A stretch of DNA of 64,000 bases from Candidatus Omnitrophota bacterium. GTDB taxonomy: Bacteria; Omnitrophota; Gorgyraeia; Zapsychrales; Zapsychraceae. Under the pieces are notes generated by a model, which saw only the letters and a list, made by a program, of their open reading frames with translations, was not told the DNA's origin and made no database searches. The stretch's first letter is position 1; the number at the start of each line of letters is the position of its first letter. A program made the position numbers and the translations under genes. Where the stretch lies: positions 5,295-69,294 of the forward strand of contig JAJDCA010000014.1 of assembly GCA_029261055.1 (NCBI GenBank), written 5' to 3'. Shown piece by piece: positions 4,056 to 60,527 of the stretch.

Positions 4056-4166
4056 ATTATCTGAACAAGAAAACGTTTTTTCTACAAAATTATGCCAATA
4101 ACCTGCCTTCCTATCGTCAGGCAGCCACGCCACGGATTGGTTGAATTTATCAATATTGGAGGAAAT

Positions 4167-16600: not shown

Positions 16601-17357
16601 ATATTCTAGTGATGGAAAAGTTGAAACAACATATAAACCGGCATTGCTTGATGAATATGATTTTTTGGTATTTATGAAAAAAATTTTAAATGAGTCCCCA
16701 GGTGCGTATCAGAGTGTGGAATTCTTAAAGGTTAGGATAAATTTAAAAAATAAATTTGATAATATCATAGATAAAATTCGGAAAGTAGAAGAGGAAAATA
16801 GTAATAAAAAATTAAAAGGAAAGAAAAGAATTGGAGGGCAGCCCGGTTATAACAAAATGGCATTGGATGATTTTGTGGCATATACAAGAAAAAGGAAGAA
16901 ACATCTCGATACATTTCCAATTAAATCAATAGAATTGCAATTTTTATTTGGTTTTCCTAAAAGGGAGAATATTTCAACATATCGCTCTCGATATTTAGGT
17001 GGGCTTATTATAAAGGAGCCTCTGGACAAAAATGACAAGATAAATTTTTTAAAGTTAATTCGTAGATGGGCAAAAAAATATGAAGGGGAAAATGAAATTA
17101 TTAAAGAAATGCCTGGGAAAATTAACGTTATGCTAAAAGATTTTGCGGCTTTGGCTTTACCTCAGCAAGGTGGAGTTGATTTTAATCCGCAATATTTGGA
17201 TTTACAAAGGCAAGGGAATAGGATAGATTCAGCTGTACTGACAGAAGGCCTGACGCAAGGTCAGATTCATTTTGATGGTTTGGAGCCTGTGGTTTTACGC
17301 GTTTTGCCGGTGACGGATATTGTGGGGTTGTTTGAGGCTTCAGGAGTTATGTGGTAA
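13647..17357 (+). CDS. giant secreted protein, paralog 2 (1236 aa)
   Basis: N-terminal signal peptide. The ~330-aa N-terminal domain is ~55-60% identical to paralog 1, with ~80% nucleotide-identity tracts. The core is divergent, and the C-terminal motif (GGVDFN..LDLQ..HFDGLEP..PV) is shared. Confidence 0.8.
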   Translation: MKSIMRSIFYFIIYVILLTFGMTTCFPSGVSCAQDVSSYPVELGLPPIGQSLSLSPLYVPPLFKGLMVYPQEPFRFDFIMDTGHAGLLPDEKATEGEKLMRYFLAALTIPEDELWVNLSPYEADRIIPDALGVTEMGRDMLAQDYLLKQLTASLMNPEEELGGEFWDRVHTQAYAQYGVTNIDMNMFHKIWIVPEKALVYENTGQVFILESKLNVMLEEDYKALNNNNPNAESRATLGENQLRGISTKIIREILIPAIKQEINHGQTFAPLRQIYHSMILATWYKQALQESLINQSYSNQKKTLGVDIEDKDVKDKIYQQYIAAFKQGVSDIIREDYDPVTQEIIPRKYFSGGLIGKVKFIATNDASQLTTAQAVGDWALLAGDVQLRNYLEIDLGVSVNKINTDEYVKILNDKVFQNVAALLEQNKFSQAKKLLSVVRKGYEEIKQVNQNAAVGSLNYKRAKIVELNSKHVENLIHDIVRDESNIGFLSIDYEVRNLLKVFFEEYNITEDGFRFFLDHVLHGMSIGDLKERIEKFFLWGNAKVTDEKLSKELAQKIWNLDFEGGVGLETFPERSRFGEKIILNLIQKLMDINKQELNVGIIGGGWFPDNGMPFSNGPIITGKMAYRIGEICSACRVSGLDIFFPVEKVEDSIGNILLVDKDGYYVSVQGSNILIEPFLDMQKRLLKKRKILLAMRQASGDNPEVYVVEKNEGLIEAGDRIVRNPLDRYVERFHDVNRGGQGVKLKNLHFQRAGKNFELYSEKKFDGIYTANTGWRNLPETYLDGMQKWGKKIKKGGFLVSEINFPKGFPLVVGEFQKGEDELSLMKLHFSMWDYYSIISSGRIFDSKDAFDHIVETKYRNILMEVWKKLINIKGGDLTIIGADLTEEFIDNVKVELNGLAAVHIADAEEGREGHLVVTIDFDKSMMGGDNSGRKKNKRTVFVETLVKKWIKKNKGKRIRKIPISGAALGGIVMLSKETALKAVKYSSDGKVETTYKPALLDEYDFLVFMKKILNESPGAYQSVEFLKVRINLKNKFDNIIDKIRKVEEENSNKKLKGKKRIGGQPGYNKMALDDFVAYTRKRKKHLDTFPIKSIELQFLFGFPKRENISTYRSRYLGGLIIKEPLDKNDKINFLKLIRRWAKKYEGENEIIKEMPGKINVMLKDFAALALPQQGGVDFNPQYLDLQRQGNRIDSAVLTEGLTQGQIHFDGLEPVVLRVLPVTDIVGLFEASGVMW

Positions 17358-35128: not shown

Positions 35129-35205
35129 CGGGGCGTAGCGCAGTTGGCTAGCGCGCAACGTTCGGGACGTTGAGGTCGACGGTTCAAATCCGTCCGCCCC
35201 GACCA
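35129..35205 (+). tRNA. tRNA-Pro (anticodon CGG), CCA encoded
   Basis: Manual cloverleaf: acceptor CGGGGCG/CGCCCCG, D-stem GCGC, anticodon stem CAACG/CGTTG, loop TTCGGGA, T-arm GACGG-TTCAAAT-CCGTC, discriminator A, CCA. Confidence 0.85.
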
Positions 35206-38909: not shown

Positions 38910-39797
38910 ATGAAACAGTATATTGATGAATTTATTAATTATCTTGCGGTTGAAAGAGGGTTAGCTAACAATACGCTCTTGGCTTACGGACGGGATTTAG
39001 CGAAATATGAGCGGTATTTTGAAGAAAAAAATATTCAAGAACCAAGTCATGTTAAGCGTGATGATATTACAGATTACATGTATTATGAAAAAAATGAGGG
39101 GTTGTCTGCTAATTCTATCTGCCGGAGTTTAGCGGCTATAAAGATGTTTCATCGATTTTTAGTGCGGGAAAGATTAGTGCAAGAAGATCCTACCCATCTA
39201 GTTGAGACGCCAAAGTTGTGGAAGCGAATCCCAGGGGTTTTGACTAGCGCGGAAGTTGAGGCTATGATTAATGCTCCTAAAGGATGGAAGTGGCAAGCGG
39301 TTAGAGATAGGGCGATTTTGGAGTTATTTTATGCCAGCGGGATGCGTGTTTCCGAACTGTCCAATTTATCTTTGGAGAATATTAATTTAGATGTCGGGTA
39401 TGTTCGTTGTACCGGTAAAGGACGTAAGGAACGCATTGTGCCGATAGGGAACAAAGCCAAGGAAGCCGTAAGAAAGTATTGTGAAACAGCGCGAACGAAA
39501 TTAGTTAAGTATCCTATGACGATGGAATTATTTTTAAGCCGGTTAGGTAAAAGAATCAGTCGGCAGAGTCTTTGGAGCATTATCAAGCTTTATGCCAGGG
39601 TAGCCGGCATTAAAAAGGAAATAAAACCACACACACTTCGACATTCTTTTGCAACACATCTTTTACAACACGGTGCGGATTTACGTTCGGTTCAGGAAAT
39701 GTTGGGACATTCGGATATTTCTACAACGCAGATTTATACGCATGTCGATAAGGAACGGTTAAAATCTATTCATAAAGAATTTCATCCTCGGGGTTAG
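38910..39797 (+). CDS. xerD: site-specific tyrosine recombinase XerD
   Basis: C-terminus HTLRHSFATHLLQHGADLRSVQEMLGHSDISTTQIYTHV closely matches XerD R-H-R-H-Y catalytic region. Confidence 0.75.
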   Translation: MKQYIDEFINYLAVERGLANNTLLAYGRDLAKYERYFEEKNIQEPSHVKRDDITDYMYYEKNEGLSANSICRSLAAIKMFHRFLVRERLVQEDPTHLVETPKLWKRIPGVLTSAEVEAMINAPKGWKWQAVRDRAILELFYASGMRVSELSNLSLENINLDVGYVRCTGKGRKERIVPIGNKAKEAVRKYCETARTKLVKYPMTMELFLSRLGKRISRQSLWSIIKLYARVAGIKKEIKPHTLRHSFATHLLQHGADLRSVQEMLGHSDISTTQIYTHVDKERLKSIHKEFHPRG

Positions 39798-44190: not shown

Positions 44191-44219
44191 TTGACACTGT
44201 CCCATAGTATAGATATACT
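44191..44219 (+). promoter_or_regulatory. dcw-cluster promoter: TTGACA, 17-nt spacer, TATACT
   Basis: Read directly. Lies ~130 nt upstream of mraZ. Confidence 0.55.
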
Positions 44220-47926: not shown

Positions 47927-48286
47927 ATGCTAATGCAAAGAAATGTTATTTTTCATAATCCACGCTGTAGTAAAAGCCGGCAAACACTTCATTTTTTGGA
48001 AGAAAGAAATGTTGATATCGAGGTTGTTGAATATTTGAAGACACCACCATCTAAAGAAGAGTTGCAATTTATTTGTTCTAGATTAGATAAGAGACCTATT
48101 GAATTGATGAGAGTTAAAGAAAATCTTTTTAAGGAGTTAGGTTTGTCTATTGAAGATCCACGTTCTGATGAAGAGTGGATTGATATTTTATGTAAAAATC
48201 CGGCTCTTATTGAGCGTCCGATTGTTGTTTATAATCAAAAAGTTGCTCTAGGCCGCCCGCCCGAGGATGTGTTGGAGATAATTTAG
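47927..48286 (+). CDS. ArsC/Spx/YffB-family thioredoxin-fold protein
   Basis: 119 aa with an N-terminal CSKS (CxxS) motif of the ArsC family. Atypically located between ftsI and murE. Confidence 0.6.
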   Translation: MLMQRNVIFHNPRCSKSRQTLHFLEERNVDIEVVEYLKTPPSKEELQFICSRLDKRPIELMRVKENLFKELGLSIEDPRSDEEWIDILCKNPALIERPIVVYNQKVALGRPPEDVLEII

Positions 48287-48289
48287 AGT

Positions 48290-49744
48290 ATGTATTTGGA
48301 GGCATTATTAAAGGGTATTTATCCGCATGAATTAAATGAGGCTTATCGACAGACGGATATTGCAGGCATTTATTGTGATTCACGGCGCGTTAAGACAAAT
48401 AGTCTTTTTGTGGCGACGAAAGGATCATCGTCTGATGGGGCCAATTTTATTAATCAAGCGATTGATAATGGAGCTTCTGTAGTCGTTTCGCATAAGCCAA
48501 GAGATAAATATTGTATTGAAAAAAAAGTTTGTTATCTCACCGTTGAAGATGCGTCTCAGTTTTTACGTGATGTCGCTAAACGGTTTTATGGGCAACCTTC
48601 TGAAAAAGTCTGCACAATCGGTATTACCGGAACTAATGGTAAGACCACCGTCGCTTATCTTATTGAATCTATTTTACATCAGGCCAAAAAAATATGTGGT
48701 GTTATTGGAACGGTGAATCACCGTATTGGGTCAAGAATCTTTCCATCCAAAAATACAACGCCGGGATTTCTTGATAATCAGGAGTTTTTAGCTTCTTTAG
48801 TTGAGCAAAATATCGATTATTGCGTTATGGAGGTGTCTTCGCATGCATTAGATCAGGGGCGTGTGGATGGTATTGATTTTAAACAAGCCGTATTTACAAA
48901 TTTGTCGCATGAACATTTGGATTACCATGAAAATCATGAAAATTATTTTGAAGCCAAATCTAAACTGTTTACCGGGTTGTCTTCCACGTCTGTAGCGGCT
49001 GTTAATAATGATGATCCTTACGGGCAGAGGCTTATTCCACAAATTTCTTCCGGTATTAAGACGTATGGCATTGGCCGTCCAGCTGATATTATGGCCAAAG
49101 ATATTCAATTACATATTAACGGATCCCAGTTTCAATTATGCACCCCTGACGGGAATGTGCCTGTCCATACAGCGTTGATGGGGATGTATAATATTTATAA
49201 TATTCTCGCGGCTGTAAGTGTTTGTTTGAACGAAGGGATCCCTTTAAACGAAATTAAAGAAGGGATAGAGAAATTGTCTTGTGTGCCTGGCCGTTTGGAG
49301 AGAGTGGATTGCGGGCAGGATTTCGCTATTTTTATCGATTATGCCCACACAGAAGATGCTCTTGTAAATGTTTTGCAGGCGATTAAAGATATTTCTAAAG
49401 GCAGGCTCATTTTAGTTTTTGGATGTGGTGGTGATCGAGATAAAACAAAACGACCTTTGATGGGTCGTGTGGCCGGTCAGTTAGCAGATATATCCATTGT
49501 CACCAGCGATAATCCCCGTAATGAGGATCCACAGAGTATTATTGATCAAGTAGTAGAGGGGTTTGAAGGGGATAATTACGTTTCTATTCTAGATCGCAAA
49601 GAAGCGATACGTAAAGCTCTAGGGATGGCTCTGCAAGATGATGTTGTTCTTCTGGCTGGTAAAGGACATGAGGATTATCAAATCATTCGGGGAAAGAAAG
49701 GGGCCTTTAATGAACGGCTGGTTATTGAAGAAATATTAAAGTAA
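48290..49744 (+). CDS. murE: UDP-N-acetylmuramoyl-L-alanyl-D-glutamate--2,6-diaminopimelate ligase
   Basis: GITGTNGKTT P-loop and the DNPR motif of meso-DAP-adding MurE. Confidence 0.85.
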   Translation: MYLEALLKGIYPHELNEAYRQTDIAGIYCDSRRVKTNSLFVATKGSSSDGANFINQAIDNGASVVVSHKPRDKYCIEKKVCYLTVEDASQFLRDVAKRFYGQPSEKVCTIGITGTNGKTTVAYLIESILHQAKKICGVIGTVNHRIGSRIFPSKNTTPGFLDNQEFLASLVEQNIDYCVMEVSSHALDQGRVDGIDFKQAVFTNLSHEHLDYHENHENYFEAKSKLFTGLSSTSVAAVNNDDPYGQRLIPQISSGIKTYGIGRPADIMAKDIQLHINGSQFQLCTPDGNVPVHTALMGMYNIYNILAAVSVCLNEGIPLNEIKEGIEKLSCVPGRLERVDCGQDFAIFIDYAHTEDALVNVLQAIKDISKGRLILVFGCGGDRDKTKRPLMGRVAGQLADISIVTSDNPRNEDPQSIIDQVVEGFEGDNYVSILDRKEAIRKALGMALQDDVVLLAGKGHEDYQIIRGKKGAFNERLVIEEILK

Positions 49745-49853
49745 GTTAACCCAACTTTACAAGAATTGATGGTTTTTTGGACTAATCAATAAATGGCAAA
49801 AATTTAAAGACGTACGGAAGAGCCTGAGGCTTGGAAATGAGAAAGAGGAATAT

Positions 49854-51863
49854 ATGACGATTAATTTTAAAGAACGAGCCAATTTTATCTGGAGTATTGC
49901 TGATCTCCTGCGCGGTGATTATAAGCAGTCAGAATATGGCCGGGTGATTTTGCCTTTAACAGTTTTACGGCGGCTTGATTGCGTGCTTGATCCAACCAAA
50001 GCGAAAGTTTTAGATGCCCTTCCTAAAGTTAAGAAGTTTTCTCCAACAGCCGCAGAGGAAGTGCTGAAACGTAAAGCAAAATTGTCCTTTTATAATAAAA
50101 GTAAATTTGATTTCCAAAGGCTAGCGGCGGATCCCAATGATATTGCCGCTAATTTACGTAATTACCTGAACGGGTTTTCCAGGAATGCACGTACCATTCT
50201 GGAGCATTTTAATTTTATTGAGCATATTGAACGTTTGGATAAATCTAATCTCCTTTACAAAATTGTCAAACGCTTTGCGGAAATCGATCTTCACCCGGAT
50301 AAAGTTAAGAATATTGAAATGGGTTATATTTTTGAGGAGCTTATCAGAAAATTTGCTGAAATATCCAATGAGACAGCCGGGGAGCATTTTACACCACGGG
50401 AAGTTATTCGTCTGATGGTCAACGTTTTATTTTTAAATGACAAAGACGTTTTGACTAAAAAAGGGATTGTTAAAACCATTTATGATCCGGCCTGCGGAAC
50501 AGGCGGGATGCTTTCGACGGCAGAGGAATATTTACTTGAGTTAAACCCTGACGCAGATTTACGTGTGTTTGGTCAGGAAATTAATCCTGAAACTTATGCT
50601 GTTTGCAATTCTGATATTCTTATTAAAGGGCAGAATGCCGATCAAATTAAATTTGGCAATTCATTTACTCAAGACGGGTTAAAAGATGAAAAGTTTGACT
50701 ACATGCTAAGCAATCCTCCGTTTGGTGTCGAGTGGAAAAAGGTTGAGGCCGAAATTAGGAAAGAACATGACAAACTTGGGTTTACCGGCCGGTTCGGTGC
50801 AGGTTTGCCGCGTATTAGTGATGGTTCATTTTTGTTTTTACAGCATATGATTTCTAAAATGCGCTCTGCAAATGGCGGAGCGCGTTTAGGCATTGTTTTT
50901 AACGGTTCACCGCTTTTTTCAGGTGGTGCCGGCAGCGGCGAGAGTGAAATTCGAAGATGGATTATTGAAAACGATATGCTCGAAGCGATTATTGCTCTGC
51001 CTAATCAACTTTTTTATAACACAGGCATTGCGACGTATATTTGGATTGTGACAAATCGTAAAGAAAAAAAGCGTAAAGGAAAGATTCAATTGATCAACGC
51101 CGCGTCTTTTTTTCAGAAGATGTCGAGAAGCCTTGGCAATAAACGTAATGAAATCGGAGACAAACACATTGCAGAGATTACGCGGATTTATGGGAATTTT
51201 AAAAAAGGAGAGTTCTGCAAAATATTCGATAATAACTATTTCGGTTACACACGGGTGACCGTTGAGCGTCCGCTTAAGTTGAATTTTATGGCAATCCCAG
51301 AAAGAATCGCACGACTGGAGAATGAATCGGTATTTAAGAATTTAGCGAAATCAAAGAAAAAGGGTAATAAGGCATTAACAGAAAATGAAACAGGAGAAAA
51401 ATATCAAAAATTGATTAAAGATGCACTTGGATCCTTGAATGCCAAAAAAATATATAAAAACCGTGAGAAATTTATTGATGATTTGAAATCAGCGTTTGAG
51501 AAAAATGGGGATAATGTCAAGTCTCCGATTATCAAAATGATCATTAAAGCCCTCAGCGAGCGGGATGAAACAGCGGACGTATGTCTTGATGCCAAAGGCA
51601 ATTCCGAACCCGATTCAGAACAACGCGATTATGAAAACGTGCCTTTGCAGGATGATATTGAAAAATATTTTAAGCGGGAAGTTCTACCGCATGTTCCGGA
51701 CGCGTGGATGGATCGAAGCAAAGATAAAGTCGGATACGAAATCAATTTTACTAAGGAATTTTATAAATACAAACCTCTGCGAAGTCTTGAAGAAATTCGT
51801 AAGGATATTCTGGCTCTTGAGAAAGAGACAGAAGGGCTTTTGGAGGAAGTATTACATGGATAA
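49854..51863 (+). CDS. hsdM: Type I restriction-modification system methyltransferase subunit
   Basis: 669 aa with NPPFG (motif IV) and DPACGTGGML (motif I). Confidence 0.9.
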   Translation: MTINFKERANFIWSIADLLRGDYKQSEYGRVILPLTVLRRLDCVLDPTKAKVLDALPKVKKFSPTAAEEVLKRKAKLSFYNKSKFDFQRLAADPNDIAANLRNYLNGFSRNARTILEHFNFIEHIERLDKSNLLYKIVKRFAEIDLHPDKVKNIEMGYIFEELIRKFAEISNETAGEHFTPREVIRLMVNVLFLNDKDVLTKKGIVKTIYDPACGTGGMLSTAEEYLLELNPDADLRVFGQEINPETYAVCNSDILIKGQNADQIKFGNSFTQDGLKDEKFDYMLSNPPFGVEWKKVEAEIRKEHDKLGFTGRFGAGLPRISDGSFLFLQHMISKMRSANGGARLGIVFNGSPLFSGGAGSGESEIRRWIIENDMLEAIIALPNQLFYNTGIATYIWIVTNRKEKKRKGKIQLINAASFFQKMSRSLGNKRNEIGDKHIAEITRIYGNFKKGEFCKIFDNNYFGYTRVTVERPLKLNFMAIPERIARLENESVFKNLAKSKKKGNKALTENETGEKYQKLIKDALGSLNAKKIYKNREKFIDDLKSAFEKNGDNVKSPIIKMIIKALSERDETADVCLDAKGNSEPDSEQRDYENVPLQDDIEKYFKREVLPHVPDAWMDRSKDKVGYEINFTKEFYKYKPLRSLEEIRKDILALEKETEGLLEEVLHG

Positions 51864-52494
51864 CGGGAGCGGTAAACAACAAAATAAAAATTGGTTTGGT
51901 CAAAATTGGATAGCTTTAATTGCGCTTTTAATCTCAATTTTCTCGGTTTTTTATACCCATTTGAATTATGGCCTTCAGACTAAGTTATCTCATTTGCAGA
52001 TAAAACCAATGATAAAAACGTATTTTGATTTGCCTGTTGATAAAAATCCTATTTTTGTTGTGGCTAATGAAGGTAGTGTCCCAGCAGTATCTCTTAGCTG
52101 TGGTTATTATGTTTTCACATTTAATAAGAATCAGAAAAAAGTTGTGGTGGCAGGTAAGGCAGGACGAGTTTTTAGCCCAGGAGTGATATATAAAGAACTT
52201 TTTAACCCAACAGACTACGAATCAATGGAGTTGGTCGGAGTATCATCTGCCGAGAATACTCTTGTAATTTATCAATTTGATTTAATTTATTTTCGTAAAC
52301 AAGATATGGATGAATATTCAAGAAGGGAATATTATTTTGTAGATAATGGGCGTTTATTATCGCATTCGGAATATCGTTTGGATCCATTGTATCGTGATGT
52401 AATGTATCAGATTTCTCAGACAATTATTCCTGATTCTCAGTGGGATTCGGGTGCTTTGAGACAATATTTAGAAAATCAATCTGAATTTAAATGA
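51856..52494 (+). CDS. membrane-anchored hypothetical protein embedded between hsdM and hsdS (212 aa)
   Basis: ATG at 51856 overlaps the hsdM stop. One N-terminal transmembrane helix. No recognisable motif. Confidence 0.5.
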   Translation: MDNGSGKQQNKNWFGQNWIALIALLISIFSVFYTHLNYGLQTKLSHLQIKPMIKTYFDLPVDKNPIFVVANEGSVPAVSLSCGYYVFTFNKNQKKVVVAGKAGRVFSPGVIYKELFNPTDYESMELVGVSSAENTLVIYQFDLIYFRKQDMDEYSRREYYFVDNGRLLSHSEYRLDPLYRDVMYQISQTIIPDSQWDSGALRQYLENQSEFK

Positions 52495-52498
52495 AAGT

Positions 52499-53818
52499 AT
52501 GAATAGATATTTAGAATATAAAGATTCAGGGATAGAATGGGTTGGTAAAATTCCAAAGGATTGGGCATTGAAACGTCTCAAGTTTGTTTCTAAGATTAAT
52601 CCTTCGAGATCATTAAATATTTCAGAAAATACTCAGTGTGCCTTTATCCCAATGGCGGCGATGAATACTGATGGAAATTTTGATCAATCTGAGCGCCATC
52701 CGCTATCAAAACTCAAAAGTGGTTTTACGTATTTTGTTAAAGATGATGTTATCTTTGCAAAAATAACCCCGTGTTTTGAAAATGGTAAAGGGGCTTTGCT
52801 AGCTAATTTGGAAAGTGAAATTGGGTTTGGTTCGACAGAATTTCATGTATTACGACCTGGAAAAGGATGGACATTATCAGCATTTCTTTATTATATTACA
52901 ATATCAGGGCAATTTCGGCGAATCGGTGAAGCTTTCATGCAGGGAGTAGCTGGACAAAAGCGAGTAACAAATGATTTTGTTGAAAATTATGTTGTGGCAG
53001 TTCCTTCGGTTGATGAACAAAAAATTATTACCGATTACTTGGATTGTAAGACGGCGCAGATTGATGACTTGATCGCCAAAAAAAAACGGATGATTGAGCT
53101 GCTTAAAGAGGAGCGGATGGCTGTAATCAATCAGGCGGTGACAAAGGGGCTTGATCCAAACGTCGAGATGAAGGATTCCGGAATTGAATGGCTTGGCAAA
53201 ATTCCGAAGCATTGGAAATTAAAGAAACTTAAATATGTGGTTAGGATAAACAAAGACTCATTATCAGAAACAGTTAGAGAAAATTATGCGTTTAATTACA
53301 TTGACATTGGTAGTGTTGACTTAGAGGAAGGGTTTAATCTGGGGGAGAAAATTAATTTTGTCGATGCACCCTCAAGAGCCAGGCGGATTGTTAGCAAGGG
53401 GGATACAATCATATCCACTGTTAGGACATATTTAAAAGCAATTGCATATATCGAGAATGATGTTAGAGATATGATAGTTTCAACAGGTTTTGCAGTAGTG
53501 TGTCCTGGTAGTGAAATAGAATCGGAATTTCTTTATTATGTTTTAAGAAGTGAGAAAATTATTGATCGCATTTGTGCCATTTCTGTGGGGGTAAGTTATC
53601 CTGCGATTAATGCATCAGATTTATCAAATACAGTTATTTGGTATCCAAAAGAGAAGGAAGAGCAAAAACGAATTACTCAACAACTTGATAGGGAACTTTT
53701 AAAGTCGAAAAGGATAATTCAAAAACTGTATAGTGAAATAGAATTATTCCAAGAATACCGCACCTCACTTATTTCTGAAGTGGTGACGGGGAAGATTGAT
53801 GTTCGGGGAGGAAGTTAA
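52499..53818 (+). CDS. hsdS: Type I restriction-modification specificity subunit (two target-recognition domains)
   Basis: Duplicated architecture: GIEWVGKIPKDWALKRLKFV and GIEWLGKIPKHWKLKKLKYV start the two target-recognition domains, with the central conserved coiled region in between. Confidence 0.85.
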   Translation: MNRYLEYKDSGIEWVGKIPKDWALKRLKFVSKINPSRSLNISENTQCAFIPMAAMNTDGNFDQSERHPLSKLKSGFTYFVKDDVIFAKITPCFENGKGALLANLESEIGFGSTEFHVLRPGKGWTLSAFLYYITISGQFRRIGEAFMQGVAGQKRVTNDFVENYVVAVPSVDEQKIITDYLDCKTAQIDDLIAKKKRMIELLKEERMAVINQAVTKGLDPNVEMKDSGIEWLGKIPKHWKLKKLKYVVRINKDSLSETVRENYAFNYIDIGSVDLEEGFNLGEKINFVDAPSRARRIVSKGDTIISTVRTYLKAIAYIENDVRDMIVSTGFAVVCPGSEIESEFLYYVLRSEKIIDRICAISVGVSYPAINASDLSNTVIWYPKEKEEQKRITQQLDRELLKSKRIIQKLYSEIELFQEYRTSLISEVVTGKIDVRGGS

Positions 53819-54550
53819 ATGTTTAGCGAAAATAGATTTTATAATATTTATTGTGATGAAAGCTGTCATTTAGAGAATGATCATCAGAAAGTAATGACCC
53901 TTGGCGCACTTTGGTGTCTTAATGATGTTAAAAGGGATATGTTTTCTAAGATAAGAGAGATAAAGCGAGAACATGGCTTACCAAATCATTTTGAGATCAA
54001 ATGGACGAAGGTATCTCCTGCAAAGATAGATTTTTATATTGATATTTTAAAGACTTTTTTTGACGAATCAGATTTGCATTTTAGGGCGGTGATTATCAAA
54101 AACAAAGAGCATCTAGATCATACAAAGTTTGCAGGGCAGGATCATGACGTTTGGTACTACAAAATGTTTTTTTGTTTATTGAATGTTATTTTAGAGCCGC
54201 ATGCTTGTTATAAAATTTATCTTGATAAAAAAGACACTAGGGGTGCTGATAAAATTATCAAATTACATGATGTTTTGTGTAACCATCGATATGATTTTTC
54301 AAAAGAAATAATTCAGAATGTGCAGTCAGTTCATTCTCATGAGATAGAACTTCTTCAAGTGGCCGATCTTTTAATAGGAGCAGTTGGATATGTCAATAGA
54401 GGGATTAATACTAGCGAGGCAAAGTCTAAATTAATTTCGTACATCCGGGAACGTTCAGGGTATAGTTTATTAGCAACGACTCTTTTAAAAGAGGAAAAAA
54501 TGAATTTATTTTTTTGGGAGCCTAAGAAAGGTTTAGATAATGGCGAGTGA
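53819..54550 (+). CDS. DUF3800-family protein
   Basis: IYCDESCH near the N-terminus and LLQVADLLIGAVGY near the C-terminus match the DUF3800 pattern. Confidence 0.6.
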   Translation: MFSENRFYNIYCDESCHLENDHQKVMTLGALWCLNDVKRDMFSKIREIKREHGLPNHFEIKWTKVSPAKIDFYIDILKTFFDESDLHFRAVIIKNKEHLDHTKFAGQDHDVWYYKMFFCLLNVILEPHACYKIYLDKKDTRGADKIIKLHDVLCNHRYDFSKEIIQNVQSVHSHEIELLQVADLLIGAVGYVNRGINTSEAKSKLISYIRERSGYSLLATTLLKEEKMNLFFWEPKKGLDNGE

Positions 54551-55094
54551 AATTGATTGGCTGCCAGAGCTAGTAATTTTTGAAAGCTATGATAACAATT
54601 GGAATAAATACTTAGAAGCTTTGTATGGATTTTACAAAATTGATTTTTTGGACAATAAGCCTAAATATAAAAATAAGGATGTTGGTGTTAAAAGACTCCC
54701 TATGTATGAGGGAAAAGAATCTAATTTTTGGCATTTGATTCAAGAGAGTTACCAGACTAAGGAGGAAGAAGATCGTATTCCTGATTTGCGAAGATGTGAA
54801 AGAATACGATGGCCGAAACCAATTATCGAAAATGTAAAAAATTCAAGGGTGTTAGTTTGGGAAAATACAAGGCACAATAAGGCTGGAATTGAGAATAATG
54901 TATGTTTTTGGTTTAAAAATAAAGAATATTTAGTTGTTTTACGAAAGAGAAAAAAGTATTTCTTGCTTTGGACTGCTTATCCGGTGATAAAAGAACATAC
55001 GAAAAGAAAATTGTGGAAGGAATATGAGGCGTATAAAAAAGCTGGGGACGCCATTTCTGACGACCCCGTTACTCCTTCTACACATGGTAGATGA
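54540..55094 (+). CDS. hypothetical protein whose start overlaps the DUF3800 gene (184 aa)
   Basis: 11-nt overlap implies translational coupling. Basic and aromatic-rich, unrecognised. Confidence 0.45.
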   Translation: MASEIDWLPELVIFESYDNNWNKYLEALYGFYKIDFLDNKPKYKNKDVGVKRLPMYEGKESNFWHLIQESYQTKEEEDRIPDLRRCERIRWPKPIIENVKNSRVLVWENTRHNKAGIENNVCFWFKNKEYLVVLRKRKKYFLLWTAYPVIKEHTKRKLWKEYEAYKKAGDAISDDPVTPSTHGR

Positions 55095-55155
55095 GCTATT
55101 TAAAATATAACATACAAAATTATGAAAAACAAAGGAAAATTAGTTCAAAAAATAA

Positions 55156-55338
55156 ATGATAGAATCTAACCACAATCAAAGCGTTAAGATTGAAATAAAA
55201 ACACCTGCGGAGGAAAAGTCCTTGCAGGCTGTGGATTGTGTAAGCTGGGCCATATTCAGGAAACTGGAGTATAGGGATGATACGTATTACAATACCATCA
55301 GGGAAAAGATCATTGAAGAAAACCCTTTGTTTCCCTAA
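55156..55338 (+). pseudogene. possible C-terminal remnant of a second DUF3800-like gene
   Basis: The 60-aa ORF contains SLQAVDCVSWAIFRKLE, resembling the DUF3800 C-terminal LQ.AD....A motif. No N-terminal part is present. Confidence 0.3.
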
Positions 55339-55520
55339 GAATGATAAAGCCTCATTCGCTATTTACGAGGAACCCTGCGGAACCCCACGGATGAGGACTT
55401 ACTTATCTAGATCGACCGGGAATCCCCAGTCCTTTTTATATCTAATGTAAGTATATGCTATAGGTTGACATTTATCAACTAGAAAGCTATACCTTTTGTG
55501 TGGGTAAAAATCGAGCTAAA

Positions 55521-58500
55521 ATGAGATCAATAACCAATGAAAAAGCCTTTGAAGAATTAATTGAGCAGTGCCTTTTGAAGAGTGGCGGTTATGTAAAAGG
55601 AGATCCTGCGAAGTTCAATCGTGGATTGGCTATGGATACGGTTGTGCTTCTTCAGTTTATTCAGGCCACACAGAAAAATGTTTGGGATGAGCTTGTAAAA
55701 ATTCACGGAATAGATGCTGAACCAAAGTTTCTTTATCGACTTAATCAGGAACTTGAAACGAGAGGTATGTTAGATTGTTTGCGCAACGGAATCATTGATT
55801 ACGGTAAGAAATTTAAATTGGCCTTTTTTAAGCCAGTCAGCGGGCTTAACCCTGAAACGCAGGAATTATATGGCAAGAATGTTCTTACGGTGACAAGGCA
55901 AGTGCGTTATTCCACAAAGGATGAAAGTTCAATTGATATGCTTCTTAGCCTTAACGGTCTTCCTATGGCCACTATTGAACTTAAGAATGCTTTTACCGGA
56001 CAAAATGTTAATAATGCCAAGCAGCAATATAAATATGACAGGAATGCGCAAGAGCTTTTATTCCAATTCAAGAAGCGTGCGCTTGTCCATTTTGCGGTGG
56101 ATACGGATGAGGTTTATATGACCACCCGGCTGCAGGGAAGCAAAACACGGTATTTGCCTTTTAACCGTGGTGTCAATAAAGGGGCTGGTAATCCTATTAT
56201 TGAGGGGAAGCATAAGACCCATTATTTATGGGAGGAAGTTTTTGTTAAAGATAGTTGGATGGATATTTTGGCGAGATTTGTTCATCTTCAGATTGAAGAT
56301 TTCTTGATTGAGGGTAAAAAAGTTAAAAAGGAAAAGATGATATTCCCGCGGTACCATCAGCTGGATGTTGTAAGAAAGATTGCGAGTCATTCTTTAGCGA
56401 ATGGAGCTGGAGAAAATTATCTCATTCAGCATAGTGCCGGAAGCGGTAAAAGTAACTCTATTGCTTGGCTTTCCTATCATTTAGCCAGTCTTCATGGTAA
56501 GACGGACGAAAGAGTATTTGATTCAGTGATTGTTGTGACAGACCGGCTTGTGCTTGATCAGCAGCTTCAGGATACGATTTATCAATTTGAACATAAACGG
56601 GGCGTAGTTGAAAGAATTGATAAGGATTCTCAACAATTGGCAGATGCATTATCCGGCGGAACAAATATTATTATCACGACACTTCAGAAATTTCCGTTTG
56701 TCCTCGATAAAGTTAAAGAACTCCCTAAGCGGAATTATGCTGTTATTGTGGATGAGGCGCATAGCTCTCAGGGAGGAGAAATGGCTAGTGACCTTAAAAA
56801 AATTTTGATGCTTAGAGATGAAGAAGATGTTGAAGATGGTCTTAGGGAAATGATGCATGCTCGTGGTCCTCAATCGAATGTAAGTTATTTTGCGTTTACG
56901 GCCACACCTAAAGCAAAAACGATTGAGATGTTTGGACAAAAAGACGATGATGGTAAGCCACAACCTTTTCATCTTTATTCGATGCGGCAGGCAATTGAGG
57001 AAGGATTTATTTTAGATGTCTTGCAGAATTATATGTCCTATAAAATATTCTTTCAGTTATCCAAGAAAATTGAGGAAGACCCTGCCGTCAATAAGAAAAA
57101 AGCCGCCCAGGCGATTGCGCGATTTTTAACGCTTCATCCGCATAATCTTGCACAAAAAACAGAGATCATTATTGAACATTTTAGGCAAGTGACCATGAGA
57201 AAAATTGGAGGTAAAGCCAAGGCAATGGTGGTTACTGCTTCGCGGGAGCATGTTGTGCGTTATAAACAGGGATTTGATAGATATCTTAAGGAAAAGGGAT
57301 ATTCAGGCATTAAAGCATTAGTTGCGTTTTCTGGGAAAGTGCTATTAGATGGGATCCCACCAGAATATACAGAGGTAAAGATGAATAATTGTGGGGAAAA
57401 GGAGCTCCCTGAGAAGTTTAGCACATCTGAATATCAGTTATTGCTGGTGGCGGAAAAGTATCAAACCGGGTTTGACCAACCTTTACTGCATACAATGTAT
57501 GTCGACAAACGGCTTGATGGTGTTAAAGCTGTTCAGGCCTTGAGCCGTTTAAATAGAATGCATCCGGGAAAAGACGATACTTTTGTGCTTGATTTTGTGA
57601 ACCAGCGAGAAGATATTCTTAACGCGTTTCAACCCTATTATGAACGAACAACATTGGTCGATACAACCGACCCTAATAAATTGTACGACCTTAAAAATAA
57701 AATTGATACGTTTAAAGTCATCGACTACGGGGACGTTGATGTGTTTTCTTCTGTGTTTTTTAAAGATAAAAAATTGCACAACAAGACCGAGCACGCCCAG
57801 TTAAATGCCTTGGTCGATAAAGCTGTTGAACGCTACGAAGCGATTGAGAAAGAAGAAGACAGAGAGGATCTGGCTAATACTTGCCGAGTCTTTACTCGTT
57901 TGTATGCCTTTTTAGCACAGATTATGCCGTTTAGTGATGTTGAACTTGAGAAGTTTTACGCATACATACGATTATTTCTTAAGAAACTTCCTAAAAGAAC
58001 GAATGATGGTCGCTTTACACTCGATGATGAGGTTGCTTTGGAATATTATCGATTACAAAAAATTGCAGAGGGAAAGATTGAATTACAAAAAGGCGTAGAT
58101 GCCGGGCTTAAGCCTGTTAATGAAGCGGGGACAAAAAAAGATAAAGAAGAATATAAGCGCTTATCAGAAATTATTAAAATTATTAATGATCACTTTGGAA
58201 CCGATTTTACGGAGGCCGATAAATTATTTTTTGACCAAATTGAGGAGGAGCTTGTTTTAGATGAAAAGTTGGGACTGCAGGCTAAAAACAATACGATTGA
58301 GAATTTTAAGTATGGATTTGAGGATATTTTTGTTAGCAAGCTTGTCGATCGGATGGATCAGAACGAGGATCTTTTTAATAAGATCATGGAGGACAAAGCC
58401 TTCGCTGCTGTTGTGAAAGATTATTTGCTAAAGAAGGTGTATCAAAGATTAAATGTGCGTAGTGGGGTCGTTGAAGAAGCTGAGTCATTTTTGCGGGACT

Positions 58501-58982
58501 TGGTTTCAGATGAGGCAATAACACCTGCACAGCGTAAAACGCATGTTCGTGTTTGTTCTCTTGAAGCGATGGCGACATCGTTTCAGGAACAGCGAAGACC
58601 TGAGGTTATTGGTTGGAAAGAAATGAAGGGTGTTTTTAAGTTAAATAAAGATATGTTTATTGCTCAAGTTGTCGGCAAATCTATGGAACCGACACTTAAA
58701 GATGGCAGTTGGTGTTTATTTCGTCCGGATCAGGGGGGATCCCGAAATAATAAAATCGTTTTGGTTGAGTCGGAGTATATTACTGATTCTGAAACAATGA
58801 AGAATTATACGATTAAGCGATATTTTAGTAAAAAGACGGACGGCGAGGATGAAGACAGCTTCCGGCATACAAAAATTATATTAAAGCCGGATAATAAAGA
58901 ATTTCCGGATATTATATTACCCGAAGAAACTAGGGAAGATGAATTTCACGTTGTTGCGGAGTTTGTGAAGGTGGTGGGTTAG
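55521..58982 (+). CDS. hsdR: Type I restriction endonuclease subunit HsdR fused to a C-terminal S24 (LexA/UmuD/CI-like) peptidase domain
   Basis: SF2 helicase motifs (SAGSGKS Walker A, DEAH, FTATP). The last ~125 aa carry VVGKSMEPTLKDGSWCLF (catalytic Ser motif), YTIKRYF (catalytic Lys) and LKPDNKEFPDIIL. Confidence 0.8.
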   Translation: MRSITNEKAFEELIEQCLLKSGGYVKGDPAKFNRGLAMDTVVLLQFIQATQKNVWDELVKIHGIDAEPKFLYRLNQELETRGMLDCLRNGIIDYGKKFKLAFFKPVSGLNPETQELYGKNVLTVTRQVRYSTKDESSIDMLLSLNGLPMATIELKNAFTGQNVNNAKQQYKYDRNAQELLFQFKKRALVHFAVDTDEVYMTTRLQGSKTRYLPFNRGVNKGAGNPIIEGKHKTHYLWEEVFVKDSWMDILARFVHLQIEDFLIEGKKVKKEKMIFPRYHQLDVVRKIASHSLANGAGENYLIQHSAGSGKSNSIAWLSYHLASLHGKTDERVFDSVIVVTDRLVLDQQLQDTIYQFEHKRGVVERIDKDSQQLADALSGGTNIIITTLQKFPFVLDKVKELPKRNYAVIVDEAHSSQGGEMASDLKKILMLRDEEDVEDGLREMMHARGPQSNVSYFAFTATPKAKTIEMFGQKDDDGKPQPFHLYSMRQAIEEGFILDVLQNYMSYKIFFQLSKKIEEDPAVNKKKAAQAIARFLTLHPHNLAQKTEIIIEHFRQVTMRKIGGKAKAMVVTASREHVVRYKQGFDRYLKEKGYSGIKALVAFSGKVLLDGIPPEYTEVKMNNCGEKELPEKFSTSEYQLLLVAEKYQTGFDQPLLHTMYVDKRLDGVKAVQALSRLNRMHPGKDDTFVLDFVNQREDILNAFQPYYERTTLVDTTDPNKLYDLKNKIDTFKVIDYGDVDVFSSVFFKDKKLHNKTEHAQLNALVDKAVERYEAIEKEEDREDLANTCRVFTRLYAFLAQIMPFSDVELEKFYAYIRLFLKKLPKRTNDGRFTLDDEVALEYYRLQKIAEGKIELQKGVDAGLKPVNEAGTKKDKEEYKRLSEIIKIINDHFGTDFTEADKLFFDQIEEELVLDEKLGLQAKNNTIENFKYGFEDIFVSKLVDRMDQNEDLFNKIMEDKAFAAVVKDYLLKKVYQRLNVRSGVVEEAESFLRDLVSDEAITPAQRKTHVRVCSLEAMATSFQEQRRPEVIGWKEMKGVFKLNKDMFIAQVVGKSMEPTLKDGSWCLFRPDQGGSRNNKIVLVESEYITDSETMKNYTIKRYFSKKTDGEDEDSFRHTKIILKPDNKEFPDIILPEETREDEFHVVAEFVKVVG

Positions 58983-59159
58983 AAATGATATATGACTCGA
59001 ATTGATAACCAAACAAGTTCGGCATTTTTCTAGATAGGGACAAATTGTCCCCAGATAGAAATGCCAGAAAAGAAACCAAAAAAGAGTTGGCAGAAGCGTT
59101 GTTTCGAAACAGAATTTTGTAGATAAAGATGATCAATTAGAACTGGAAAATCAAAAATA

Positions 59160-60527
59160 ATGATACACGCACACATTAATGACATTGTAAAATGCACTAA
59201 AGGGAAGCTTGTTAAGGGGAATGAGGAGGTCCAGGTTAGAGGTGTATCCATTGATTCGCGGACTGTAAAGAAGGGGAACCTTTTTATTGCGATCAAAGGA
59301 GTGAACTTTGACGGTCATCGGTTTGTTGCGCAAGCGATTAAAAAAGGGGCGGCGGCGATTATTGTTTCAAAGCGAAAGGTCGTGCCTTGTGACGTTCCCA
59401 CTATTTTGGTCAATGATACAACGCAAGCTTTGGGTGAAGTGGCGCGATTTCATCGGTGTCGGTTTTCGATTCCGCTTATTGCTATTACCGGGAGTACTGG
59501 TAAAACCACCACAAAGGATATGATTGCGGCGGTCCTTAAAGTTAAGTTTAAAGTATTAAAGAATATCAAAACAGAAAATAATCAGTTCGGGGTTCCGTTA
59601 ACGCTTCTGAAGCTGAATGCCTCTTATGATGTGGTTGTGTTGGAATTAGGGACGAACCAGCCGGGCGATATTCCGTGGCTTGCCTATGTTGCCCAGCCCA
59701 CCGTGGCTGTTTTTACAAATATCGGGGAATCACATCTTCAAGGGCTCAAGACGCCGCAGGGGGTGTTTCGTGAGAAATATCAGTTAATTAAGCATACGGC
59801 TGAAGATGGTACGGTAATTTTTAATGGCGATGACATTTATTTAAAAACTATTACAAATAAAAAATTATCGCAGACAAAAATAACGTTTAGTATTCAAGAA
59901 AAATCTGATTACCAGGCTATGAAAATCAAAAAGAGCGGTAATTATAAGTTATGTTTTCAAACGTACCGGAATATTTTTTCTATAGTCAGTCCGGCTGAGC
60001 ATAATATTTATAATGCATTAGCCGCAATGTGTTGTGGCCGGTTCTTTAAAATTAGTTTTGATGATATTAAGGGTAGGATTTCTAGATTTAAGGGGGCTGA
60101 TGGGCGTCAAATTGTTAAAAAGTGTAAGAATTTTTGGTTGATTGATGATACGTACAATTCTAATCCTGTATCTTTTAAAAGTGCTTTAAAGACCTTGAGT
60201 TCTTTTGAAACAAAAGGAAGGAAAATTTTAGTGTTTGGAGATATGATGGAATTAGGTTCGCAAGCGCAGGATTTACATCAGCGGATGGGAAAATTGATTA
60301 GACAGTCAAGCATTGATGCTATTTTTACATTTGGTCAATATTCTGATCAGATAACTAAAGAAATTACAAAAAATTCAAAGGCTATGCAAGCAAGGCATTG
60401 TAAGACTCAAAACAAATTGCAGCAGCATTTACAGCATTTTTGTCAAAAGGGTGATGTTATCCTTATTAAAGGTTCCCGCAGCATGAAAATGGAAAGGGTT
60501 GTTGATTTTTTATGTTCTATTACTTAG
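59160..60527 (+). CDS. murF: UDP-N-acetylmuramoyl-tripeptide--D-alanyl-D-alanine ligase
   Basis: ITGSTGKTTTK P-loop and Mur ligase domain order. Confidence 0.85.
   Translation: MIHAHINDIVKCTKGKLVKGNEEVQVRGVSIDSRTVKKGNLFIAIKGVNFDGHRFVAQAIKKGAAAIIVSKRKVVPCDVPTILVNDTTQALGEVARFHRCRFSIPLIAITGSTGKTTTKDMIAAVLKVKFKVLKNIKTENNQFGVPLTLLKLNASYDVVVLELGTNQPGDIPWLAYVAQPTVAVFTNIGESHLQGLKTPQGVFREKYQLIKHTAEDGTVIFNGDDIYLKTITNKKLSQTKITFSIQEKSDYQAMKIKKSGNYKLCFQTYRNIFSIVSPAEHNIYNALAAMCCGRFFKISFDDIKGRISRFKGADGRQIVKKCKNFWLIDDTYNSNPVSFKSALKTLSSFETKGRKILVFGDMMELGSQAQDLHQRMGKLIRQSSIDAIFTFGQYSDQITKEITKNSKAMQARHCKTQNKLQQHLQHFCQKGDVILIKGSRSMKMERVVDFLCSIT

What the first reader, a model, noticed from the sequence alone, without database searches (positions are those of the whole stretch)
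49854..58982. A 9.3-kb Type I restriction-modification island splits the normally invariant dcw cluster between murE and murF
mraZ-rsmH-ftsL-ftsI-murE and murF-mraY-murD-ftsW are contiguous in most bacteria. Here hsdM, three unknown genes, hsdS and hsdR sit exactly at the murE|murF junction, all co-oriented with the cell-wall genes. This is an unusual landing site for a defence island. It also forces read-through or a new promoter for murF-ftsW.
Basis: partly seen in the sequence, partly recalled or inferred. Interest (0 to 1): 0.6.

Follow-up and report, generated by a model that had tools for sequence, protein, structure and literature searches.

The report
Restriction-modification cassette inserted between murE and murF
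A complete, horizontally mobile six-gene phage-defence cassette has landed exactly between two cell-wall genes (murE and murF) that overlap or lie within 20 bases of each other in every sampled relative; the site is very unusual, but the cassette is a known kind with one undescribed feature, a LexA-like self-cleaving-protease domain on its nuclease.

Summary
In this Candidatus Omnitrophota genome, 9,415 bp separate the murE stop (49744) from the murF start (59160). All six intervening genes are on the + strand, like the dcw genes.

It is hsdM, an uncharacterised membrane protein, hsdS, PADLOC candidate PDC-M04A (DUF3800), PDC-M04B, then hsdR.

Seven Omnitrophota loci have murE and murF overlapping or at most about 20 nt apart, within otherwise matching synteny. 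In 76 informative loci across phyla, none had more than 403 nt between murE and the next dcw gene. The insertion is therefore derived and rare.

The cassette is mobile. HsdR is 70-87% identical to proteins from other phyla, whereas MurE's best match is 58%. The same composite cassette sits beside a tRNA and an integrase in another contig, and after smpB in another Omnitrophica genome. In the window it has no integrase and no flanking repeats. Its composition looks native, but that is uninformative.

No terminator and no above-chance promoter precede murF, so read-through is plausible but untested.

An extra finding: HsdR ends in a LexA-like S24 domain with a conserved Ser/Lys pair. This recurs in about 50 related protein clusters, and I found no description of it.

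The parts
48290..49744 (+). murE, intact. It is the left boundary of the insertion.
   Evidence: Three Mur ligase domains. The C-terminus aligns to the end with relatives.
49745..49853 (+). 109-nt spacer between murE and hsdM, with a Shine-Dalgarno-like AGAGGAA just before the hsdM ATG.
   Evidence: Read directly from sequence. No terminator-like or promoter-like site on the + strand. Folding is no better than shuffles, z -0.33. No similarity to any fetched locus.
49854..51863 (+). hsdM, Type I methyltransferase subunit, 669 aa.
   Evidence: HsdM_N and N6_Mtase domains. PADLOC MTase_I PDLC03029 matches full length, E 4.5e-297. 79-81% identical to 669-aa HsdM proteins in L088-L091.
51856..52494 (+). 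Embedded gene of unknown function, 212 aa, with an N-terminal hydrophobic helix. Its start overlaps the hsdM stop by 8 nt.
   Evidence: No significant hit in Pfam, PADLOC or NCBIfam. It belongs to a rare conserved family: 104 representatives at E<=1e-3 among 1.84 billion. A 66%-identical copy occupies the same hsdM-hsdS slot in L091.
52499..53818 (+). hsdS, specificity subunit with two target-recognition domains, 439 aa.
   Evidence: Methylase_S matches twice. PADLOC Specificity_I matches full length, E 6e-112. Only 35-36% identical to HsdS of otherwise near-identical cassettes, as expected for variable recognition domains.
53819..54550 (+). DUF3800 protein, equal to PADLOC candidate PDC-M04A. 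Embedded between hsdS and hsdR.
   Evidence: PF12686 E 1.5e-16. PDLC04353 E 2e-91. 69-72% identical copies in the same slot in L088 and L091.
54540..55094 (+). PDC-M04B, the partner of the DUF3800 protein.
   Evidence: PDLC04357 E 9e-60. No Pfam family. 60-67% identical copies in L088 and L091.
55095..55520 (+). 426-nt spacer. It holds an orphan ORF (55156-55338) and a sigma-70-like TTGACA-17-TATACC (55465-55493) 27 nt before the hsdR ATG.
   Evidence: Read directly from sequence. The orphan ORF has no hits. The equivalent spacer is about 70-125 nt in L091 and L088. Whether the promoter works is inference only.
55521..58982 (+). hsdR, restriction and translocase subunit, 1153 aa, with an extra C-terminal domain.
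   Evidence: HSDR_N, SWI2_SNF2/ResIII and T1R_D3-like domains. TIGR00348 hsdR E 1.4e-57. Distant match to EcoR124I HsdR 2w00, E 2e-15. Homologues 70-87% identical in several phyla.
58545..58979 (+). LexA-like S24 peptidase domain at the HsdR C-terminus, including a region that aligns with the LexA cleavage site.
   Evidence: PF00717 E 2.8e-8. Ser in GKSMEPT and Lys in TIKRY are >=95% conserved in 44 long homologues, and 'AVATSF' aligns where LexA has 'VAAGEP'. AlphaFold model pLDDT 73.7. Foldseek top 35 hits are all LexA, lambda CI or UmuD, TM-score (target-normalised) up to 0.79.
58983..59159 (+). 177-nt spacer between hsdR and murF. It holds an imperfect 45-nt hairpin (59021-59065) without a U tract, and a weak promoter-like match at 59087-59115.
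   Evidence: z -2.16; unique in the window. No canonical Shine-Dalgarno within 10 nt of the murF ATG (direct reading).
59160..60527 (+). murF, intact. It is the right boundary. It has lost the overlap with murE seen in relatives.
   Evidence: Three Mur ligase domains. The N-terminus aligns with relatives. Relatives' murE and murF overlap by 4-13 nt in 5 of 6 gene-called loci.
47927..48286 (+). arsC, a second and smaller foreign insertion in the same dcw cluster, between ftsI and murE.
   Evidence: TIGR00014 scores 130 bits against a cut-off of 106. No gene lies between ftsI and murE in L081-L086.

Best explanation
A self-contained, horizontally circulating Type I restriction-modification cassette was inserted, in sense orientation, precisely into the murE/murF junction of an Omnitrophota dcw cluster. 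This happened after that lineage split from all sampled relatives.

The cassette has the known 'embedded defence' layout. hsdM and hsdS supply methylation and sequence specificity. hsdR supplies ATP-driven translocation and cleavage of unmodified DNA. The two variable slots carry passenger genes: a rare membrane protein between hsdM and hsdS, and the untested candidate pair PDC-M04A/B between hsdS and hsdR.

Neither flanking gene was damaged. However, the murE-murF overlap that is usual in relatives was replaced by 9.4 kb.

Inferred, not shown: because the cassette is co-oriented and lacks recognisable terminators, dcw transcripts probably read through it. Its own hsdR-proximal promoter may add to murF-ftsW expression. 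murF must now start translation on its own.

The cassette has no integrase or repeats here, so it is probably fixed in place. How it inserted is unresolved; the two candidates are illegitimate recombination, or an integrase-borne island whose mobility genes were later lost.
For: Gene content and integrity.

Empty site in relatives: 7 Omnitrophota loci show an uninterrupted junction within otherwise identical synteny over more than 20 genes.

Rarity: of 86 loci, 54 have murF next (largest gap 127 nt) and 22 have mraY next (largest gap 403 nt). None has foreign genes there and none has hsd genes.

Mobility of the cassette:
- HsdR is 87% identical to a JGI metagenome protein and 70-71% identical to proteins labelled Desulfobulbaceae and Elusimicrobiales.
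- By contrast, MurE's best hit is 58%, and its cross-phylum identity is about 40-47%.
- The same gene order, hsdM-X-hsdS-M04A-M04B-hsdR(S24), occurs in L091 directly after tRNA-Met, an HTH gene and a tyrosine integrase.
- It occurs after smpB in Omnitrophica L088.
- hsdMSR(S24) without passengers lies in a tRNA-Asp-to-integrase defence island in L089 and L090.

Boundaries: DNA homology with those cassettes runs from 49852 to about 58966, that is, the genes only.

Transcription: no + strand terminator-like site at either junction. The strongest promoter match in 17 kb lies upstream of mraZ at 44191-44219.

Precedent: embedding of defence genes in Type I RM slots is established (bioRxiv 10.1101/2024.01.29.577857; PMC12255303).
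Against: - No insertion scars: no flanking direct or inverted repeats, integrase, transposase or tRNA fragment. The mechanism and even the exact ends are therefore not shown.
- Codon usage (z between -0.1 and +1.3), GC (0.374 against 0.392) and tetranucleotide distance all fall in the host range. Composition does not support recent acquisition on its own. Homologous cassettes elsewhere have GC 0.36-0.41, so the test is uninformative.
- The nearest relatives are distant (MurE 58%). A genus-wide or older insertion cannot be excluded.
- The sequence is from a metagenome-assembled genome, and read-level support for the two junctions was not available.
- Nothing on transcription or activity was tested.
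Confidence: 0.8

Rival explanations
1. Assembly or binning artefact. The hsd block comes from another organism or another locus and was joined into the dcw cluster by the assembler.
For: The sequence is a metagenome-assembled contig. The exact-match look-up did not retrieve the contig itself, so coverage and junction reads could not be inspected.
Against: Two independent chimeric joins would be needed, and they would have to restore the exact dcw order and orientation with both flanking genes intact. There are no repeats at the junctions to cause a mis-join. Island codon usage and tetranucleotide content match the host. MurE and HsdR are each recorded on a single 321,631-bp contig from NCBI and Logan sources.
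Confidence: 0.04
2. Ancestral arrangement. The cassette was at murE|murF in an early Omnitrophota ancestor and was cleanly deleted in the sampled relatives.
For: Composition is native-like. No mobility genes or scars are present.
Against: All 7 Omnitrophota loci have overlapping or nearly abutting murE and murF, as do other phyla. This rival would need several independent precise deletions that each restored the overlap. HsdR is far more similar to proteins from other phyla (70%+) than the core genes are. Homologous cassettes sit at unrelated sites next to integrases.
Confidence: 0.05
3. The cassette is a decaying remnant, a non-functional passenger kept only because deleting it risks the essential flanking genes.
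For: It has no regulator gene, unlike L088-L090, which have an HTH gene before hsdM. A 426-nt spacer with an orphan ORF suggests local decay.
Against: All six genes are full length against their profiles and homologues, with no frameshifts. Gene starts and stops are tightly packed or overlapping. The catalytic Ser/Lys pair and the helicase and nuclease domains are retained.
Confidence: 0.1

Closest known systems
Type I RM systems with embedded defence genes. Examples are the EPEC RRDM island rptR-hsdM-hsdS-darT-darG-hsdR (PMC12255303), PrrC within Type I RM, and 'guilt-by-embedding' (bioRxiv 10.1101/2024.01.29.577857).
   Same: hsdM, hsdS and hsdR are co-oriented with passenger genes in the hsdS-hsdR slot. 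The passengers here are a PADLOC candidate (PDC-M04) that was itself defined by such embedding.
   Different: A second passenger, the unknown membrane protein, sits in the hsdM-hsdS slot. There is no upstream regulator gene. HsdR carries an S24 domain. The whole unit lies inside an essential operon rather than in a defence island or mobile element.
tRNA-integrated defence islands carrying the same cassette (L091: tRNA-Met-HTH-integrase-cassette; L089 and L090: tRNA-Asp ... integrase).
   Same: HsdM and HsdR are 74-81% identical and the passengers 60-72% identical, in the same gene order.
   Different: The window copy has no integrase, tRNA or att-like repeats and lies at murE|murF.
LexA, lambda CI and UmuD: the S24 self-cleaving, RecA*-responsive domains.
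   Same: Same fold (Foldseek E 1e-6, TM-score up to 0.79). Same Ser-Lys pair in G-x-S-M and T-[IV]-K-R motifs. A strand aligns with the LexA cleavage-site region.
   Different: The domain is fused to the C-terminus of a restriction subunit instead of to a DNA-binding domain. The Ala-Gly scissile pair is replaced by Ala-Thr in the subfamily consensus. Cleavage and RecA dependence are untested.
Proteolytic restriction alleviation of Type IA and IB enzymes by ClpXP, and assembly-based alleviation in Type IC (review PMC12707154).
   Same: Post-translational control of HsdR in response to DNA damage is an established need of Type I systems.
   Different: In those cases the protease acts in trans and is a housekeeping enzyme. 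Here a protease-like domain is built into HsdR. That review does not mention S24.

Membership tests
Type I restriction-modification system | HsdM with an N6-adenine methyltransferase domain and an HsdM N-terminal domain | tested here: met
   PF02384 E 2e-63, PF12161 E 7e-29. PADLOC MTase_I E 4.5e-297.
Type I restriction-modification system | HsdS with two target-recognition domains | tested here: met
   PF01420 matches twice. PADLOC Specificity_I covers residues 1-437 of 439.
Type I restriction-modification system | HsdR with an N-terminal nuclease domain and an SF2 translocase motor | tested here: met
   HSDR_N, SWI2_SNF2, ResIII, DEAD and T1R_D3-like domains. TIGR00348 E 1.4e-57, though below its curated cut-off. 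EcoR124I HsdR E 2e-15.
Type I restriction-modification system | Site-specific methylation and ATP-dependent cleavage of unmodified DNA | not testable with these tools
   Needs methylome data or biochemistry.
PADLOC candidate system PDC-M04 | Adjacent, co-oriented genes matching both the PDC-M04A and PDC-M04B profiles | tested here: met
   E 2e-91 and 9e-60, with genes overlapping by 11 nt.
PADLOC candidate system PDC-M04 | Anti-phage activity | not testable with these tools
   The PDC systems are described as 145 untested candidates (10.1101/2024.01.29.577857).
LexA-type S24 self-cleaving domain | Ser-Lys catalytic pair in conserved motifs | tested here: met
   GKSMEPT and TIKRY, >=95% conserved in 44 homologues.
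LexA-type S24 self-cleaving domain | LexA C-terminal-domain fold | tested here: met
   Foldseek against the PDB: the top 35 hits are all LexA, CI or UmuD. Model pLDDT 73.7.
LexA-type S24 self-cleaving domain | Ala-Gly (or Cys-Gly) scissile bond in the cleavage-site region | tested here: not met
   The aligned position reads A-T ('AVATSF' consensus; 'AMATSF' in the window).
LexA-type S24 self-cleaving domain | RecA*-stimulated or alkaline autocleavage | not testable with these tools
   Biochemical assay required.
Integrative genomic island | Integrase or recombinase, a tRNA or other att target, and flanking direct repeats | tested here: not met
   No integrase domain in the island. No flanking repeats. 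The only tRNA is at 35129. The xerC-like gene at 38910 is conserved in relatives.
[quoted passage not shown] | Conserved order mraZ-rsmH-ftsL-ftsI-murE-murF-mraY-murD-ftsW | tested here: met
   Order and orientation are retained and interrupted only by arsC and the RM cassette.

The most novel reading that the evidence does not exclude
The LexA-like S24 domain at the HsdR C-terminus is a built-in proteolytic switch. It recurs in about 50 related protein clusters, on a second, distantly related HsdR family, and next to or fused with Schlafen-type defence helicases. On sensing RecA-ssDNA filaments or another damage or infection signal, it would cut itself off HsdR. That would either alleviate restriction, protecting the host chromosome as ClpXP does for EcoKI, or release an autoinhibited nuclease. 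This would be a previously undescribed, in-cis way of coupling Type I restriction to the SOS signal. It might also explain how such a cassette is tolerated inside an essential operon.
Probability: 0.25. Interest if true: 0.7.

Novelty: new variant of a known kind. Interest (0 to 1): 0.42.

Why it matters
The murE-murF junction is among the most conserved gene adjacencies in bacteria. The two genes are sometimes fused, and gene order has been linked to assembly of the Mur enzymes (PMC10214165). A 9.4-kb foreign, potentially toxic nuclease system tolerated at that junction shows the adjacency and its translational coupling are dispensable in at least one lineage. It is a natural test case for how essential operons absorb insertions.

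In practical terms, defence-island searches that look only at known hotspots or mobile elements would miss such cases.

The HsdR-S24 fusion is the more general lead. It suggests a testable, self-contained route for damage-responsive control of Type I restriction.

Tried and rejected
- Exact-match look-ups of the window's own MurE found nothing, so the source contig and its read support could not be examined.
- The genome-contig scan with a MurE alignment used patterns that were too generic. It returned mostly other phyla and only one Omnitrophica. I reused it as a cross-phylum baseline and took Omnitrophota contexts from exact-protein look-ups instead.
- Flanking repeats, att sites and tRNA fragments: none found.
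- A possible remnant of the old murF 5' end just after the murE stop (GTTAAC...) was considered. I dropped it because it has no DNA similarity to the present murF start and only about 5 similar residues.
- The orphan ORF 55156-55338 looked by eye like a DUF3800 C-terminus. BLASTP and profile searches gave nothing, so that idea is rejected.
- My first codon-usage run used the wrong frame for the unknown gene (start 51860, z -2.18). The true start is 51856, and the GC and GC3 of the correct frame are. The -2.18 value should be ignored.
- A first metagenome scan with a 23-sequence alignment of the unknown protein failed for lack of a conserved stretch. A 5-sequence alignment found one locus, L091.
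- 'Standalone' S24 proteins turned out to be C-terminal pieces of full-length HsdR reading frames (L092, L093).
- phmmer of the S24 region against PDB sequences found nothing. The fold search was needed.
Full report
**What is there.**
The window comes from a Candidatus Omnitrophota genome. The best MurE homologues are all labelled Omnitrophota or Omnitrophica, and the closest is 58% identical.

Profile searches give, all on the + strand: mraZ, rsmH, an ftsL-like gene, ftsI, arsC (47927-48286) and murE (48290-49744). The island follows:
- hsdM, 49854-51863
- a 212-aa protein of unknown function, 51856-52494
- hsdS, 52499-53818
- a DUF3800 protein, 53819-54550
- a 184-aa partner, 54540-55094
- hsdR, 55521-58982

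Then come murF (59160-60527), mraY, murD and ftsW.

The inserted DNA, from murE stop to murF start, is 9,415 bp.

Those two match the PADLOC candidate system PDC-M04 (A: E 2e-91; B: E 9e-60). PDC-M04 is one of 145 untested candidates that were themselves defined by being embedded in BREX, DISARM or Type I RM loci (bioRxiv 10.1101/2024.01.29.577857).

**Is the split derived and unusual?**
Exact-protein look-ups of the five best long-contig MurE homologues returned six Omnitrophota loci (L081-L086). Each carries ligA-(unknown)-xerC-pcnB-rbfA-DHH-truB-ribF-mraZ-rsmH-ftsL-ftsI-murE-murF-mraY-murD-ftsW-murG..., the same order as window 36359-63959.
- In five of the six, murE and murF overlap by 4-13 nt. 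In the sixth they are 11 nt apart.
- A seventh Omnitrophica locus, L003, has them about 20 nt apart.
- None has a gene between ftsI and murE.

As a wider baseline I mapped the window's proteins onto 86 loci, 80 of them from diverse GTDB species:
- 54 have murF next after murE, with a largest gap of 127 nt.
- 22 have mraY next, with a largest gap of 403 nt.
- The rest are uninformative.
- None contains hsd genes or any foreign insertion at that junction.

But an insertion at this point is rare (0 of 76). Both MurE's C-terminus and MurF's N-terminus are intact.

**Is the island foreign?**
Composition says nothing either way.
- Codon-usage likelihood of the island genes lies within about 1.3 sd of 44 host genes.
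- Tetranucleotide distance is within the host range.
- GC is 0.374 against 0.392 for the rest of the window.
- Homologous cassettes in other genomes have GC 0.36-0.41, so a donor of similar composition is expected.

Similarity is decisive.
- HsdR has homologues at 87% (JGI metagenome), at 78% (an Omnitrophica genome), and at 70-71% in proteins labelled Desulfobulbaceae and Elusimicrobiales. S24-less relatives labelled Margulisiibacteriota, Poribacteria and archaea are 64-75% identical over the shared 85%.
- Core proteins are only 48-77% identical to the nearest relatives. MurE is about 40-47% identical across phyla.

Context agrees.
- L091 has eno-ftsB-tRNA-Met-HTH-tyrosine integrase, followed by hsdM (79%), the same unknown protein (66%), hsdS, one extra ORF, M04A (69%), M04B (60%) and hsdR (74%).
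- L088, an Omnitrophica genome, has HTH-hsdM-(a different 266-aa gene)-hsdS-M04A-M04B-hsdR after smpB.
- L089 and L090 have the bare hsdMSR inside a tRNA-Asp-to-integrase defence island.
- DNA homology to these cassettes starts at 49852 and ends near 58966. The window's spacers are unique.

So the cassette is a mobile unit with two variable passenger slots. That matches the 'embedded defence' pattern described for Type I RM (PMC12255303).

**How it got there.**
This is unresolved. The island has no integrase, transposase, tRNA fragment or flanking repeats. The xerC-like gene at 38910-39797 is a conserved housekeeping neighbour. Either illegitimate recombination occurred, or the mobility genes were lost after integration. 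Both are inference.

A second small insertion, arsC, on the other side of murE suggests that this stretch of the cluster has accepted foreign DNA more than once.

**Expression.**
The consensus scan found 54 promoter-like sites in 17 kb against 50.6 expected, so it has no overall signal.
- The best single match (11 of 12) lies upstream of mraZ, at 44191-44219.
- The murE-hsdM spacer has no + strand promoter-like or terminator-like site.
- The only match before murF is a 9-of-12 site at 59087-59115.
- The hsdR-murF spacer contains a unique 45-nt imperfect hairpin (59021-59065) with no U tract.
- A TTGACA-17-TATACC lies 27 nt before the hsdR ATG. The scanner rejected it because the last base is C.

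My reading is inference, not shown. The cluster's transcripts run through the co-oriented cassette, and the hsdR-proximal promoter possibly contributes. murF has lost its overlap with murE and has no Shine-Dalgarno within 10 nt, so it must initiate on an A-rich leader.

**The passengers.**
The 212-aa protein has an N-terminal hydrophobic helix and no family assignment. It belongs to a small conserved family: 104 cluster representatives at E<=1e-3 among 1.84 billion, mostly 200-260 aa. Its only retrievable genomic neighbour set, in L091, is the same slot of the same cassette. The slot holds unrelated genes in L088 and L087, including FRG and Schlafen/AlbA_2-type proteins. A defence role is a reasonable guess by embedding, nothing more.

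**The unexpected feature.**
HsdR is about 150 residues longer than its ~1000-aa sister proteins. The extension is a Peptidase_S24 domain (E 2.8e-8).
- In 44 long homologues the LexA catalytic Ser (GKSMEPT) and Lys (TIKRY) are >=95% conserved. A preceding strand, 'YLPVYSLQAVATSF', aligns with LexA's 'GLPLVGRVAAGEPL', but with Ala-Thr in place of the Ala-Gly scissile bond.
- An AlphaFold model of the last 228 residues (pLDDT 73.7) hits only LexA, lambda CI and UmuD C-terminal domains at the top of a PDB fold search. The best E-value is 1e-6 and the target-normalised TM-score reaches 0.79.
- About 50 of the 120 best HsdR clusters carry the domain. The HsdR bodies of S24-bearing proteins (70-78% identical) and S24-less proteins (72-76%) are equally close to the query. 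The module is therefore gained or lost readily.
- The same module, 62% identical, ends a different HsdR family whose body is only 25% identical (L092:4935-8534).
- It also follows a Schlafen-group-3 helicase in a Halomonas defence island, and is fused to that helicase family in P0432.

A full-text search for HsdR with S24 and LexA found no description. A 2025 review of RM biology discusses only ClpXP-mediated and assembly-based restriction alleviation.

The hypothesis that this is an in-cis, damage- or infection-responsive proteolytic switch on HsdR is attractive but untested. The missing Ala-Gly counts against simple LexA-like cleavage.

**Verdict.**
The finding is real, and its interpretation as a derived insertion of a defence cassette into the murE|murF junction is supported.
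- The system itself is a known kind, a Type I RM with embedded candidates.
- The location is very unusual but rests on a single metagenome-assembled genome with no close relatives.
- Its physiological consequences are inferred.
- The HsdR-S24 fusion is the most novel element and is a general, testable lead.

Noticed in passing
window 47927-48286: A glutaredoxin-type arsenate reductase gene (arsC; TIGR00014 scores 130 bits against a cut-off of 106) sits between ftsI and murE. The six gene-called Omnitrophota loci have nothing there, so the dcw cluster carries a second foreign insertion on the other side of murE.
   Followed up: partly
window 58545-58979; also L092:4935-8534, L094:6998-9468: The LexA-like S24 domain on HsdR recurs on a distantly related HsdR family. 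It also occurs next to or fused with Schlafen-group-3 (DUF2075) helicases in defence islands. Ser and Lys are conserved, but the Ala-Gly cleavage pair is replaced by Ala-Thr.
   Followed up: partly
window 55095-55520: The spacer between PDC-M04B and hsdR is about 300 nt longer than in homologous cassettes. It holds an orphan 60-aa ORF (55156-55338) with no detectable relatives. It also holds a short GTTGA...TCAAC palindrome overlapping a TTGACA-17-TATACC promoter-like site (55465-55493).
   Followed up: partly
window 59021-59065: A unique imperfect 45-nt hairpin (GGCATTT...GGGACAA/TTGTCCC...AAATGCC) lies between hsdR and murF, with no U tract. It could be a processing or stability element, an operator, or an insertion scar.
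   Followed up: partly
window 4092-8639 and 13647-17357: Two very large ORFs (1515 and 1236 aa) have no Pfam match at E<=1e-5.
   Followed up: no
L088:4316-4513, L089:6491-6646, L090:4567-4740: Homologous cassettes have a small HTH gene (XRE or HTH_17 type) immediately upstream of hsdM, reminiscent of RptR-type regulators of Type I RM. The window copy has none, consistent with it having come under host operon control.
   Followed up: no
L087:588-3410: In the closest HsdR relative (87%), the slots between hsdM and hsdR hold different genes: an FRG-domain protein, and a Schlafen AlbA_2 / HATPase_c_4 / Fic-like_C protein. This illustrates rapid turnover of embedded genes.
   Followed up: no
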